The notes beneath the pieces are model-generated. The model saw only the letters and a list, made by a program, of their open reading frames with translations, was not told the DNA's origin and did not search any database. Positions 164 to 3,587 of a stretch of 64,000 bases of DNA are shown here, in pieces. This stretch comes from a bacterium. Its GTDB lineage: Bacteria > Patescibacteriota > Minisyncoccia > UBA6257 > UBA9933. The translations under genes were made by a program, and so were the position numbers. How positions within the stretch are numbered: position 1 is the first letter of the stretch; every line of letters begins with the position of its first letter. Location of the stretch: positions 2,758-66,757 of the forward strand of contig JAUYBE010000006.1 of NCBI GenBank assembly GCA_030693235.1. Reading direction: 5' to 3'.

Positions 164-1234
164 GTGCTTGCCAAGCCGAAGCTATTAAAAGCGAAGGATG
201 GCCGGTGGCGGAATTATTTAAATAAAAATATGGGAACAAAACAATCATTATATAAAGCAAATAAGATTAAGGATGATGAATTTTTCACTCTTTATGAGGA
301 TGTTGCCAATGAAGCTGCTCTTTATAAGGAGCAACTAAATGGAAAAAGAATTATATGTCCTTGTGATTGGGATGAAAGTTATAATGAAGAAATTGTTTAC
401 AAGGAAGAAGGGTTTGTTAGTCCATCTAATTTATTAGATGCCGGAGGCACAATCAAACGAATAGACATAAAAGCTTCCAAGAAAAAAATAGAAAAAGAGT
501 TAGCTTTGATTAGGTGTAATTTTGTAAAATTTTTAGTGGCTCATGCTGACACTTACGGAATAACTTCAATTTCAGTGAGTGGGTATAATCCCTCTACTGG
601 TAAAGGTGTGAGATTCCAAGATATTGATTACTCAAAATACGATCTAGTTATAACAAACCCGCCATTTAGTCAGTTTAGAGAATTTATTGATACGATGTTT
701 AAAAATAACATGAGGTTTTTAGTTATTGGACCGCTCACGGCTATAACTTATAAGGAAATTTTTAATCATATAGAAAAAAATGAAATGTGGCTTGGCTATG
801 CGAAGCAGTTATCCGGATTTCGATTATCAGATGGTACACTAGTTCTTTCAAAAGATCCTGAAGGCTCAGTACCTAGAGCTTGTAAATGGTATACTAATTT
901 AGATGTTACTTATAGACATGATAGGATGATTTTAACTGAGAATTATAGTCCTGAAAAATATCCAAATTATTATAACTACAATGGTATAAATGTGGAGAAA
1001 ACGAATAAAATACCATATGATTATGCCGGTGAGATGGGAGTTCCAATCACATTTTTAACAAAGTATAATCCAGAACAGTTTAAGATTATAGGAAAAGGTG
1101 TTCAGGTCAAAAAAACGGTAAGATTTAAGGGCGATAAAGCAACTCTTTGGATTGAAAAAGACGGTAAGCCTTTCAATGCTCCTTTTGAAAGGATATTAAT
1201 AAAAAATAAAAAAGTAATTAAAAATGGCAAATAA
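164..1234 (+). CDS. Putative N6-adenine DNA methyltransferase (NPPF catalytic motif); the real start may be the internal ATG near 230
   Basis: Translation contains 'DLVITNPPFSQF', the (D/N)PP(F/Y) motif IV of amino-methyltransferases. The 3' end overlaps the next ORF by 11 nt, suggesting an operon. No clear FxGxG motif I was recognised, so class assignment is uncertain. Confidence 0.5.
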   Translation: MLAKPKLLKAKDGRWRNYLNKNMGTKQSLYKANKIKDDEFFTLYEDVANEAALYKEQLNGKRIICPCDWDESYNEEIVYKEEGFVSPSNLLDAGGTIKRIDIKASKKKIEKELALIRCNFVKFLVAHADTYGITSISVSGYNPSTGKGVRFQDIDYSKYDLVITNPPFSQFREFIDTMFKNNMRFLVIGPLTAITYKEIFNHIEKNEMWLGYAKQLSGFRLSDGTLVLSKDPEGSVPRACKWYTNLDVTYRHDRMILTENYSPEKYPNYYNYNGINVEKTNKIPYDYAGEMGVPITFLTKYNPEQFKIIGKGVQVKKTVRFKGDKATLWIEKDGKPFNAPFERILIKNKKVIKNGK

Positions 1235-2309
1235 TATGAATATCAAATATTTATATGAACAACTTAGAGACGGAAAGATCATTAGCGATATAGAGCTTCA
1301 AAGAGAAATTGTTTATGATACTGAGAAACAAGTATTGGTTATAGACAGTATTGTTAACGGAATTCCGTTGCCAGCTTTCTATTTTTGGAAAAATAAAGAT
1401 GGTATCTTGGAAGTTTTAGACGGAAAACAAAGAATAGAAGCCATTAAAAAATTTATTGAAAATGATATTCAATATCAAGATAAATTGTGGAAACAAACAG
1501 ACAAGGAAATTCAAGACATAATCAATAAGACTGAACTTTCAATTGTTATATGTGAAGGTCAAGACCAATTAAAAAGAGAAATATTTAGAAGAATCAATAC
1601 TTTAGGTGTACCACTTTCTCCTTATGAAGTATTAAATGGTCTTTTCCATGGTGAATATTTAAGGGGTTTAACTGTTTATGTTGGGCAAGATAGAGACACA
1701 TTAAGAGTTTTGGGGTCGAATAGCCGTGGTAAAAATCAATACAAGATTTTACAGCTATTAATGGAATTGAAGAATTTATCAAGAGACCCTCAAACTATAA
1801 ATGATTATGTGAGTAAAAATCAGAAGAATTCTTTCGCTGATGACCAAAAAGAGATTAGCAAATATATCAAATTTGTTAGTGAAATATTTGATGGATACGG
1901 TCAATTAGATATTTATTTTAATTTAGCGAGAAAATATTTTAAGGATTCAGTTATTTGGAAACAAAATAAGGATGAAATTAATTCTCGTATTAAAAAATAT
2001 TTAAAGAGTGATGACGCTAAATTGACTGATAAATCGAAAGAGATAGAAGACATTATTCAAGCAATTGTAAATGACATTAGTGTTGATGAGAAGCGTTTAT
2101 TCTCAAGTGATGACAAAAAAGAATATTTAAGAAAACAAACGCCAAATAAAGAAAATAAATATCCCTGTGCCATTTGTAAGAAATATTTTTACGAGGATGA
2201 ATTGACTATGGACCATAAAGACCCATGGAGCAAAGGTGGCAGAACTGAACTCTCAAACGCCCAATTATTGTGTGGCCCTTGTAACATTAAAAAGGGAAAC
2301 AGAAGTTAG
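1224..2309 (+). CDS. DUF262 (ParB/Srx-like NTPase, 'DGKQR' motif) fused to a C-terminal HNH nuclease
   Basis: The N-terminus has 'ISDIELQREIVYD...LDGKQRIEAI', the DUF262 DGQQR-type motif. The C-terminus has 'CAICKKYF...DHKDPWSKGG...NAQLLCGPCNIKKG', an HNH Cys-His box. Confidence 0.65.
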   Translation: MANNMNIKYLYEQLRDGKIISDIELQREIVYDTEKQVLVIDSIVNGIPLPAFYFWKNKDGILEVLDGKQRIEAIKKFIENDIQYQDKLWKQTDKEIQDIINKTELSIVICEGQDQLKREIFRRINTLGVPLSPYEVLNGLFHGEYLRGLTVYVGQDRDTLRVLGSNSRGKNQYKILQLLMELKNLSRDPQTINDYVSKNQKNSFADDQKEISKYIKFVSEIFDGYGQLDIYFNLARKYFKDSVIWKQNKDEINSRIKKYLKSDDAKLTDKSKEIEDIIQAIVNDISVDEKRLFSSDDKKEYLRKQTPNKENKYPCAICKKYFYEDELTMDHKDPWSKGGRTELSNAQLLCGPCNIKKGNRS

Positions 2310-2387
2310 AACTTAGCTATTTATAGCTATAATTTTATCAAAAAATAATTAACAAATAACCTGACAAAGCCCTGCTTGAAGTAAAGT

Positions 2388-3587
2388 ATGATAGAAAATT
2401 TTTTCAATAATATTTTAAGTAAAGAAAATTTAGCCATTACTGGTGTCGTTATCCTTTTTTTATGGCGAGTCATCGATTCTTTTATTAAGCTTCACAAAAA
2501 AGGCGTAATTGAAACCGATAATATGGCTTTTGATTTAGCAAAAGCAAAATTAAGCAATCGATCAAGTCATGATTTTCCGCTACTCACTTATTTTTTCATG
2601 TATCGTAAAGTATTAAAGAGTAAATTGAACTTTCATCAAGGATATGTAAATTGGCTTGCGCATAAAGAGGAAGAATTAGATAGAAAAATTGACCAACTCA
2701 CTTTTCTTAATAGGACATTGGAAGAGAAAGATAGCGGGCGCGCTCCGCTTCCAACTTGGCGTTCTGTGTATTATGATATTAAATATCTTTTCAAAATTAT
2801 GTTTGAGAAAAAGCGATATAAAATTGAGAAAGTTTTTGTCCAAAACAAAAAGAATGAAAAACTAGCAGGATTGAGGGATTTACCAACTACTAATCGAGGC
2901 AAATATCCAACAGTGGTGCTAGTTCATGGTTTTGGTGCAAATAAAACTGAGTACGGAATGTTTGATGATTTAGCAAAGCGCTTAGCTTCTAATGGTTATC
3001 AAGTATATCGATTTGATTTTGCTGGACTTGGAGAAAGCGAAGGAAGCTATTCATTTACGACGCTTTCCAAACAAGCCGAAGATTTGGAAGGTATTTTAGA
3101 TTTCGTAAAAACCCAACCCACAACAGACAATTTTAAACTTGGTTTAGTCGGTATGTCATTAGGTACAGCAGTTATTACCGCATTTCAACCTAAAAATGTT
3201 CGAGCACTTGTCTATTTAGGTTCAGTATCCGAACCGCACAAAACCCTCAAAGAACTTTTTGGAACCGGATATAATCCCGATGGAATGTCGGTTCGAATTA
3301 CTTCCGAAGAGAAAAGAGTTGAAATATATGGCGATTTTTGGAAGGATTTTGATAATTACAATCTTCCAGATTTAATTAAAAATATCAAAGCTCCCATTTT
3401 GTTTATTCATGGTGAAAAAGATTCAAAAGTCGGTGTTGAAAGTGCTCAGCTTTACTTTGATAACGCAAACACTCCAAAAGATTTGAAAATTGTCAAAAAT
3501 GCTGATCATGGATTTTATGAACCGGACGAACGGAAGGAAATGATTGATTTGACAGAAAGTTGGTTTGATAAATATTTGTTGTATTAG
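2388..3587 (+). CDS. Membrane-anchored alpha/beta-hydrolase fold protein
   Basis: An N-terminal hydrophobic helix is followed by a coiled-coil stretch. The hydrolase core has 'VVLVHGFGANK', the nucleophile elbow 'GMSLGTAV' (GxSxG) and a C-terminal 'DHGF' His. Confidence 0.6.
   Translation: MIENFFNNILSKENLAITGVVILFLWRVIDSFIKLHKKGVIETDNMAFDLAKAKLSNRSSHDFPLLTYFFMYRKVLKSKLNFHQGYVNWLAHKEEELDRKIDQLTFLNRTLEEKDSGRAPLPTWRSVYYDIKYLFKIMFEKKRYKIEKVFVQNKKNEKLAGLRDLPTTNRGKYPTVVLVHGFGANKTEYGMFDDLAKRLASNGYQVYRFDFAGLGESEGSYSFTTLSKQAEDLEGILDFVKTQPTTDNFKLGLVGMSLGTAVITAFQPKNVRALVYLGSVSEPHKTLKELFGTGYNPDGMSVRITSEEKRVEIYGDFWKDFDNYNLPDLIKNIKAPILFIHGEKDSKVGVESAQLYFDNANTPKDLKIVKNADHGFYEPDERKEMIDLTESWFDKYLLY

What the first reader, a model, noticed from the sequence alone, without database searches (positions are those of the whole stretch)
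164..3587. Co-directional module: NPPF adenine methyltransferase, DUF262-HNH nuclease and a membrane alpha/beta-hydrolase
The MTase-like ORF and the DUF262-HNH ORF overlap by 11 nt, implying translational coupling.

DUF262 normally pairs with DUF1524 (GmrSD), as in the gene at 62245. Here it is fused to HNH and coupled to a methyltransferase instead, giving an RM-like or modification-dependent module of non-canonical composition. The TM-anchored hydrolase with a coiled-coil follows co-directionally, 79 nt after the nuclease gene.

The module lies next to a truncated hsdM copy, consistent with accretion at an RM hotspot.
Basis: partly seen in the sequence, partly recalled or inferred. Interest (0 to 1): 0.6.

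Follow-up and report, generated by a model that had tools for sequence, protein, structure and literature searches.

The report
Mobile two-gene restriction-modification cassette
The first two genes are a widespread, horizontally mobile restriction-modification pair (an EcoRI-family adenine methyltransferase plus a DUF262-HNH nuclease) of a family that defence-annotation tools already model as Type II; the hydrolase next door is an unrelated neighbour, so the finding is real but largely ordinary.

Summary
The "module" is two genes, not three.

**The pair.** The methyltransferase (true start ATG 230, to 1234; Pfam PF13651, NPPF motif) and the DUF262 + HNH nuclease (1224 or 1236, to 2309) are adjacent in this order in 30 of 30 independent loci. 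These loci come from CPR/Patescibacteria, Clostridia, Actinobacteria, Bacteroidota, plasmids of Firmicutes and Actinobacteria, a Flavobacterium phage and viral contigs. The two proteins diverge in step, from 97/92% down to 28/31% identity.

**Mobility.** Nucleotide similarity of 81-95% to other genomes covers only window ~200-2342, a 2.1-kb mobile cassette.

**Known family.** PADLOC's Type II models match both proteins over their full length. Plasmid relatives score 283-453 bits against the nuclease model, so this is a divergent member of a family already catalogued.

**The hydrolase.** The alpha/beta-hydrolase never accompanies the pair (0 of 30 loci). A 77% homologue sits in a different locus with no cassette.

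**The hsdM fragment.** The "truncated hsdM" is real. It is a 3' fragment at 3630-3770, downstream of the hydrolase.

**Open points.** Recognition sequence, NTP dependence and the role of the ParB-like domain in a methylase-linked nuclease are untested.

The parts
200..2342 (+). Extent of the mobile cassette, defined as the stretch with 81-95% nucleotide identity to unrelated genomes
   Evidence: blastn of window 1-4000 against loci L001-L016. Homology starts at 200-253 and ends at 2293-2342 in every locus. Cassette GC is 30-32%, against 37.8% for the whole window.
230..1234 (+). N6-adenine DNA methyltransferase of the EcoRI family (334 aa). Conserved ICPCDW at residues 41-46 and catalytic NPPF at 143-146.
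   Evidence: PF13651 at 217 bits. PADLOC MTase_II PDLC03297 at 3e-61. AlphaFold2 model pLDDT 80, pTM 0.80. Foldseek matches are weak (best E-value 1.3e-3, TM-scores about 0.3); most are SAM-dependent methyltransferases (Dim1/KsgA/Erm, DpnM, T4 Dam, TaqI, HsdM), interspersed with ubiquitin/SUMO E1 Rossmann-fold enzymes. Family invariants in alignment A3.
1224..2309 (+). Restriction endonuclease candidate (361 aa, or 357 aa from ATG 1236). ParB/Srx-like DUF262 domain (Q26 R27, D66 G67 K68 Q69 R70), a helical middle domain of the ParBDB type, and a C-terminal zinc-ribbon HNH (C315, C318, D330, H331, N345, C350, C353, N354).
   Evidence: Pfam. PADLOC REase_II PDLC03418 at 4.5e-30 over the full length, and NsnA at 5e-28. 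AlphaFold2 model pLDDT 83.5. Foldseek best matches are BrxU (a GmrSD-family enzyme), ParB CTPase domains and the Gme HNH nuclease 4h9d. The listed residues are invariant across members at 26-97% identity (alignment A4).
79..222 (+). Degenerate 3' remnant of an XRE-type HTH gene (...AKAL...PVAELFK*) abutting the cassette's left end. The window copy carries 19-nt and 34-nt insertions and an upstream stop codon.
   Evidence: Comparison of the upstream regions of L006, L009, L011 and the window. It is not present in all loci, so it is a relic and not a required part.
2388..3587 (+). Neighbour, not part of the system: alpha/beta-hydrolase with an N-terminal hydrophobic anchor
   Evidence: Pfam; no PADLOC hit. 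Absent from all 30 loci that carry the pair. A 77% homologue follows hsdR and DUF5680 in L147, which has no cassette. Most relatives are ~252-aa proteins of Patescibacteria and Woesearchaeota.
3630..3770 (+).
   Evidence: 57 nt at 95% identity to 21119-21175, the 3' end of the resident hsdM. The protein tail FKNPNGK(A/T)DLAHKPPAELV is shared.

Best explanation
Window ~200-2342 is a compact, horizontally mobile two-gene restriction-modification cassette.

Proposed mechanism:
1. The upstream gene encodes an EcoRI-family N6-adenine methyltransferase. It marks the host's copies of a still unknown recognition sequence.
2. The downstream gene starts within a few bases of the methylase stop, so it is probably made from the same transcript and after the methylase. 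It encodes the cognate endonuclease.
3. The endonuclease cuts DNA that lacks the mark, using a zinc-ribbon HNH active site.
4. Its N-terminal ParB/Srx-like DUF262 domain and the helical DNA-binding domain that follows probably bind DNA and gate the nuclease, most likely through nucleotide binding, as in the GmrSD, BrxU and SspE relatives.

Shown: domain identities, intact and invariant catalytic and NTP-site residues, strict co-occurrence and co-divergence of the two genes, cassette boundaries, and full-length matches to Type II MTase and REase profiles.

Inferred: that methylation protects, that the nuclease shares the methylase's site, any NTP requirement, and translational coupling.

The hydrolase, the hsdM fragment and the kinase are separate neighbours in a defence island.
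For: - Domains and motifs.
- The methylase lies immediately upstream of the DUF262-HNH gene in 30 of 30 distinct loci:
  - 12 close metagenome or genome loci;
  - 9 annotated plasmids and one phage at 26-31% identity;
  - 3 loci at intermediate identity;
  - 2 loci reached from the methylase side;
  - 4 viral contigs.
- Nuclease/methylase identity pairs fall together: 97/92, 87/75, 66/55, 64/64, 54/56, 47/46 and 28/31%.
- Nucleotide homology is confined to 200-2342, in hosts of 30-51% GC.
- QR, DGxQR and the HNH residues are invariant across the whole family.
- PADLOC REase_II PDLC03418 matches plasmid relatives at 283-453 bits and the window enzyme at 103 bits, all over the full length.
- Fold matches to BrxU, ParB and the Gme HNH nuclease.
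- Family size: 646 clusters at 50% identity with E-value up to 1e-10, most of them ~360-400 aa and matched end to end.
Against: - No biochemical data exist, and no recognition sequence could be inferred. Palindrome depletion in the window was uninformative.
- In L011 the methylase carries a 1-nt deletion inside the conserved GMGVP codons, yet the nuclease ORF is intact with every invariant residue. If this is not a sequencing error, the nuclease is not simply lethal without its methylase.
- DUF262 domains characterised so far sense modified DNA (PMC12065111, PMC4619093). That is the opposite logic to the one proposed here.
- Other genes can sit between M and R: an Abi_C gene in L014 and optrA in an Enterococcus dispar plasmid. 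Translational coupling is therefore not obligatory.
- I found no paper describing this pairing.
Confidence: 0.8

Rival explanations
1. The nuclease is a modification-dependent (Type IV, GmrSD-like) enzyme. The adjacent methylase has another role, such as marking the element's own DNA against other restriction systems or epigenetic regulation, and does not protect against this nuclease.
For: The DUF262 N-domain has a DGxQR motif, and the best multidomain fold match is BrxU. The literature treats DUF262 as a sensor of modified DNA (PMC12065111). L011 keeps an intact nuclease beside a frameshifted methylase.
Against: The methylase is present and upstream in 30 of 30 loci and co-diverges with the nuclease. 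Stand-alone GmrSD enzymes such as the one at 62245 have no such partner. The C-terminal nuclease is PF01844 HNH, not DUF1524. REBASE-derived profiles class the family as Type II.
Confidence: 0.08
2. One reading: a three-gene module in which the membrane alpha/beta-hydrolase works with the methylase and nuclease.
For: The hydrolase is co-directional and starts 78 nt after the nuclease. In several loci some gene follows the nuclease closely.
Against: The hydrolase is absent from all 30 loci with the pair. The genes that follow the nuclease elsewhere are unrelated to it and to each other. The hydrolase lies outside the nucleotide-homology block and has a different GC content, 33.8% against 30-31.6%. 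A 77% homologue sits after hsdR and DUF5680 with no cassette. It has no PADLOC hit.
Confidence: 0.03
3. The same two genes act mainly as a selfish addiction or mobility cassette, through post-segregational killing or HNH-assisted spread, and host defence is secondary.
For: The 2.1-kb unit shares 81-95% nucleotide identity across phyla and across hosts of 30-51% GC. It occurs on small plasmids, next to integrases and transposases, and in phages.
Against: This is a difference of biological role, not of mechanism. It is not distinguishable with sequence data. The cassette here sits in a defence island.
Confidence: 0.09

Closest known systems
Type II RM pairs modelled by PADLOC MTase_II PDLC03297 and REase_II PDLC03418. 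Examples are the 'EcoRI family methyltransferase' plus 'DUF262 domain-containing protein' pairs on plasmids of Enterococcus faecium, Macrococcoides canis, Lactiplantibacillus pentosus, Rhodococcus ruber and Moraxella osloensis, and in Flavobacterium phage laban6-1.
   Same: Gene order M then R, with a junction between a 14-nt overlap and a 9-nt gap. Same full-length architecture. Same invariant QR, DGxQR, CxxC, DH, N and N residues.
   Different: Only 26-31% identity to the window enzyme, which scores 103 bits against 283-453 bits for the plasmid relatives. The window branch lacks a ~12-residue N-terminal insert. It uses Cys as the fourth zinc ligand where relatives have His or Asp. It circulates mainly in CPR/Patescibacteria metagenomes. 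I could not identify which characterised REBASE enzyme seeded the model.
GmrSD, BrxU and SspE (Type IV enzymes; DUF262 + DUF1524)
   Same: ParB/Srx-like N-domain with the nucleotide-site motif, a helical middle region, and a His-Me-finger nuclease at the C-terminus. BrxU is the best multidomain structural match.
   Different: The nuclease domain is PF01844 zinc-ribbon HNH, not DUF1524. The protein is 361 aa against ~580 aa. A methylase partner is obligate. Only the DGxQR stretch aligns with the window's own GmrSD.
Menshen NsnA (ParB-DUF262 + ParBDB sensor; PMC12065111)
   Same: The PADLOC NsnA profile matches residues 3-284 at 5e-28. This covers the DUF262 domain and the associated DNA-binding domain.
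   Different: There is no NsnB ATPase or NsnC effector next to it. Here the sensor-like module is fused directly to a nuclease and paired with a methylase.
M.EcoRI (PF13651 archetype)
   Same: Same Pfam family over the full length, and the NPPF motif.
   Different: The partner nuclease is not an EcoRI-type PD-(D/E)XK enzyme. GAATTC is not depleted in the window. Specificity is unknown.

Membership tests
Type II restriction-modification system | Separate, adjacent methyltransferase and endonuclease genes that are inherited together | tested here: met
   Adjacent in 30 of 30 loci, with co-divergence.
Type II restriction-modification system | Methyltransferase with a SAM-dependent fold and a (D/N/S)PP(Y/F) catalytic motif | tested here: met
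   PF13651 at 217 bits; NPPF at residues 143-146. Fold matches are weak (best E-value 1.3e-3) and mostly SAM-dependent methyltransferases, mixed with E1 Rossmann-fold enzymes.
Type II restriction-modification system | Endonuclease with an intact nuclease active site | tested here: met
   HNH residues D330, H331, N345 and N354 and the zinc cysteines are invariant family-wide.
Type II restriction-modification system | The endonuclease recognises the methylase's sequence and is blocked by its methylation | not testable with these tools
   No REBASE look-up or methylome was available. Palindrome depletion was uninformative.
Type II restriction-modification system | Cleavage needs Mg2+ only, with no NTP | not testable with these tools
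   The invariant ParB-type QR and DGxQR motifs make an NTP requirement plausible. That would depart from the Type II definition.
PADLOC REase_II PDLC03418 family | Full-length profile match | tested here: met
   E-value 4.5e-30; residues 24-360 against profile positions 37-372 of 372. Relatives score 283-453 bits.
GmrSD-family Type IV restriction enzyme | N-terminal DUF262 with a DGQQR-type motif | tested here: met
   PF03235 at 3.5e-16; the motif here is DGKQR.
GmrSD-family Type IV restriction enzyme | C-terminal DUF1524 (PF07510) nuclease domain | tested here: not met
   No PF07510 hit; PF01844 and PF14279 HNH instead. The window's genuine GmrSD at 62245 does have PF07510.
GmrSD-family Type IV restriction enzyme | Stand-alone gene with no cognate methyltransferase | tested here: not met
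   A methylase lies upstream in 30 of 30 loci.
Menshen (NsnABC) | An NsnA-like gene followed by an NsnB ABC ATPase and an NsnC effector | tested here: not met
   The downstream gene is a hydrolase here and varies elsewhere.
   Present in 0 of 30 loci. Its homologue L147 lacks the pair.

The most novel reading that the evidence does not exclude
The DUF262-HNH enzymes may form a mechanistically distinct class of methylation-protected restriction enzymes. In this reading a ParB-like, nucleotide-gated domain does one of two things: it licenses the HNH nuclease only on unmethylated DNA, or it closes into a sliding clamp as ParB does. Under either, a sensor module so far known only for detecting modified DNA would be used with inverted logic, and the system would be Type II by gene organisation but NTP-dependent by mechanism.
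Probability: 0.25. Interest if true: 0.6.

Novelty: new member of a known kind. Interest (0 to 1): 0.3.

Why it matters
- **Annotation.** Standard annotation calls the nuclease only a "DUF262 domain-containing protein" or "McrA". This hides a large family of probable restriction enzymes and would lead readers to file it under Type IV. The strict methylase linkage shown here argues for classical RM.
- **Open mechanism.** The family offers a natural test of a question raised in the Menshen survey (PMC12065111): can ParB-DUF262 modules target unmodified DNA when a methylase is present?
- **Gene flow.** The cassette is only 2.1 kb and shares up to 95% nucleotide identity between CPR lineages and other phyla. 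It is a convenient marker of recent gene exchange in groundwater communities.

None of this is a new kind of system.

Tried and rejected
1. **Recognition site from palindrome avoidance.** GGCC, GATC and TCGA are depleted in the window and in host flanks. GAATTC, CAATTG and the CATG-core hexamers tested are not, and the 4-mers AATT and CATG rank only seventh and eighth. This points to no specific site for the system.
2. **A larger mobile unit with conserved ends and a variable third gene.**
   - The right-hand "end" at 3588-3626 also follows the cassette in L006, L015 and L016. It turned out to be the core of a short repeat with at least 120 copies in metagenomes.
   - The left-hand "end" is a relic of an HTH gene's 3' end with ragged boundaries.
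   - Neither is evidence for a defined element. The repeat's closeness to the cassette in 4 loci remains unexplained.
3. **A conserved third gene.** Genes downstream of the nuclease in L005, L006, L015, L019, L141, L143 and L144 are not similar to each other or to the hydrolase.
4. **Apparent nuclease decay in L016.** This was only a masked run of N.
5. **Source contig and upstream flank.** The window's nuclease is not on record. The only identical contig, L146, starts inside the nuclease gene. The gene ending at 103 therefore stays unidentified.
6. **Rfam.** No match on window 1-9000 or on loci that carry the repeat.
7. **Literature.** Six searches found no description of this pairing.
9. **Solved structures.** Nothing closer than domain-level matches to 4h9d and BrxU.
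Full report
**What is in the sequence**

Three co-directional ORFs occupy 164-3587.

ORF1 matches Pfam PF13651 (EcoRI_methylase) over its whole length, at 217 bits against a cut-off of 26.4. It carries NPPF at residues 143-146 of the 334-aa form. Homologues are 321-345 aa and align from the ATG at 230, so the GTG at 164 is only the mechanical ORF start.

ORF2 (1224-2309) combines GmrSD_N/DUF262 (residues 24-141) with a PF01844 HNH domain (residues 315-360).

ORF3 (2388-3587) is a generic alpha/beta-hydrolase. 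It has a hydrophobic N-terminal segment at residues 15-33 and a GMSLG nucleophile elbow.

ORF1 and ORF2 overlap by 11 nt if ORF2 starts at ATG 1224. Most homologues begin at the equivalent of the second Met, ATG 1236, which is 1 nt after the ORF1 stop. Either way the two genes abut.

**The pair is a unit and the hydrolase is not part of it**

I collected 30 distinct loci that encode a full-length relative of ORF2:
- twelve close relatives (82-97% identity) from CPR/Patescibacteria, Clostridia and an actinobacterial MAG;
- three at 63-67% identity, including a Bacteroidota-like context;
- two reached from the methylase side;
- four viral contigs at 47-69% identity;
- nine annotated records at 26-31% identity, namely plasmids of Enterococcus, Moraxella, Macrococcoides, Lactiplantibacillus, Rhodococcus, Yimella and Chryseobacterium, and Flavobacterium phage laban6-1.

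In all 30 a PF13651 methylase lies immediately upstream on the same strand. Nuclease and methylase identities fall together, from 97/92% to 28/31%. This is what co-evolution as a unit predicts.

The hydrolase, the kinase and the Mrr gene occur in none of these loci. The genes that follow the nuclease elsewhere are unrelated to each other.

Nucleotide similarity between the window and the close loci is 81-95% and is confined to ~200-2342, in hosts of 30-51% GC. The cassette's GC content is 30-32%, against 33.8% for the hydrolase and 37.8% for the window.

The hydrolase belongs to a family common in Patescibacteria and Woesearchaeota. Its 77% homologue sits after hsdR and DUF5680 in a locus with no cassette.

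**What the pair is**

PADLOC's REBASE-derived profiles match both proteins:
- MTase_II PDLC03297 at 3e-61;
- REase_II PDLC03418 at 4.5e-30, covering residues 24-360 against profile positions 37-372 of 372.

The plasmid relatives hit the same REase_II profile at 283-453 bits over the full length. The family is therefore already modelled as a Type II restriction enzyme, and the window's gene is a divergent branch of it.

Across the whole family these residues are invariant:
- Q26 and R27;
- D66, G67, Q69 and R70 (the DGxQR nucleotide-site motif of ParB/DUF262 domains);
- C315 and C318;
- D330 and H331;
- N345, C350 and N354.

The AlphaFold2 model (pLDDT 83.5) matches BrxU (a GmrSD-family enzyme), ParB CTPase domains and the Gme HNH nuclease 4h9d. 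The PADLOC NsnA profile covers residues 3-284. This corresponds to the ParB-DUF262 domain plus the ParBDB DNA-binding domain defined in PMC12065111.

The methylase model (pLDDT 80, pTM 0.80) gives only weak Foldseek matches (best E-value 1.3e-3, TM-scores about 0.3). Most are SAM-dependent methyltransferases, including DpnM, T4 Dam, TaqI and an HsdM; ubiquitin/SUMO E1 Rossmann-fold enzymes are interspersed.

An exhaustive search of 1.84 billion representative proteins gives 646 clusters at E-value up to 1e-10. Most of the best 150 are 360-400 aa and matched end to end.

**Most likely mechanism**

This is a methylation-protected restriction system.
1. The methylase marks an unknown adenine-containing site.
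2. The nuclease is expressed from the same operon, directly behind the methylase.
3. The nuclease cleaves unmarked DNA through its HNH site.
4. The DUF262 and ParBDB portion binds DNA and probably gates cleavage through nucleotide binding, as it does in its Type IV relatives.

The gene linkage, motifs and profile matches are shown. Protection by methylation, shared specificity, NTP dependence and translational coupling are inferred.

Evidence that does not fit neatly:
- L011 carries a 1-nt deletion in the methylase's conserved GMGVP codons beside an intact nuclease.
- Other genes can be inserted between M and R: an Abi_C gene in L014 and optrA in an Enterococcus dispar plasmid.

**Membership**

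The pair is not a GmrSD-type Type IV enzyme. The DUF1524 domain is absent and a methylase partner is obligate. Only the DGxQR stretch aligns with the window's genuine GmrSD at 62245.

It is not Menshen, because there are no NsnB or NsnC genes.

It meets the testable criteria for a Type II RM system. The Mg2+-only criterion is open because of the conserved nucleotide-site motif.

**Context**

The "truncated hsdM" is real. At 3630-3770, frame +1 encodes ...FKNPNGKADLAHKPPAELV...*, and 57 nt are 95% identical to the 3' end of the resident hsdM at 20126-21205. It lies after the hydrolase and directly before a PD-T4-6-like Ser/Thr kinase.

A full Type I locus sits at 16-26 kb, in the order hsdR, Fic, hsdM, HTH-M78, Beta protein and hsdS.

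The region 3.8-10.4 kb also holds a TM-Mrr protein, an NYN-domain protein and an HTH-Panacea protein. The idea that the cassette landed in an RM and defence hotspot is reasonable.

**Novelty**

I found no paper describing this pairing. However, the family is already captured by Type II profiles and annotated in many plasmids. I therefore rate it a new, divergent member of a known kind.

The open and more interesting question is how a ParB-like module, known for sensing modified DNA, works in a methylase-linked nuclease.

Noticed in passing
window 3588-3626: GGTGGCGCGCCAGTTTCACTGGCACGAAATTCAGTGGCGG sits directly after the hydrolase stop. Consensus: GGCGGCGCGCCAG-loop-CTGGCACGAAATTCGGCGGCGGCGG, often extended to ~200 nt. 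The hairpin GCCAG/CTGGC has a variable loop. The sequence upstream of each copy is unrelated. Many copies lie at contig ends, and some contigs carry inverted pairs. There is no Rfam match and only one copy in this window, yet the repeat also lies 0.7-1.6 kb downstream of the cassette in L006, L015 and L016.
   Followed up: partly
window 6524-6556 / 6963-6995 and 7006-7042 / 7965-8001: Two single genes are each bracketed by ~35-nt direct repeats at 92-94% identity. One is ORF 6557-6913 (118 aa, no family). The other is the TM + Mrr_cat gene at 7062-7913. The second repeat contains the palindrome TTCGCGCGAA. This looks like cassette-wise insertion in the island.
   Followed up: no
window 3781-5778: Ser/Thr protein kinase. 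The kinase domain matches PADLOC PD-T4-6 at 3e-69 and, more weakly, MADS MAD6. A ~390-aa C-terminal region has no Pfam match. The gene starts 11 nt after the stop of the hsdM remnant.
   Followed up: partly
window 19798-21205: The resident hsdM is split into two overlapping ORFs: HsdM_N at 19798-20199 and N6_Mtase at 20126-21205. This suggests a frameshift or a pseudogene. Fic, HTH-M78 and 'Beta protein' genes are embedded in the Type I operon.
   Followed up: no
window 79-222; also L006, L009 and L011 upstream of the methylase: A relic of an XRE-type HTH gene's 3' end (...IAKALGVPVAELFK*) abuts the cassette. This hints at an ancestral controller-protein gene. The window copy has 19-nt and 34-nt insertions. 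In L011 the junction is duplicated on both sides of an extra gene.
   Followed up: partly
L011 5008-6008 and 6001-7086: The methylase has a 1-nt deletion in its conserved GMGVP codons, while the adjacent nuclease is intact with all invariant residues. The truncated 275-aa methylase is recorded on 6 contigs.
   Followed up: partly
L014 5155-5895; L017 1164-3128: Foreign genes are inserted between the methylase and the nuclease: an Abi_C-domain gene in a Staskawiczbacteria MAG, and the optrA resistance gene in an Enterococcus dispar plasmid.
   Followed up: yes
window 8248-10374: An NYN-domain gene at 8248-8814, followed by an HTH_3 + SocA/Panacea antitoxin-like gene at 9225-9989 that overlaps a 131-aa ORF at 9979-10374. 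This is a probable toxin-antitoxin pair in the same island.
   Followed up: no
window 2-103: The C-terminal 33 codons of a gene that runs off the left end of the window (...GELLLTEKQKAWVKAKLKSETLFSLRLALEKEK*). It could not be identified, and no public contig extending upstream was found.
   Followed up: partly
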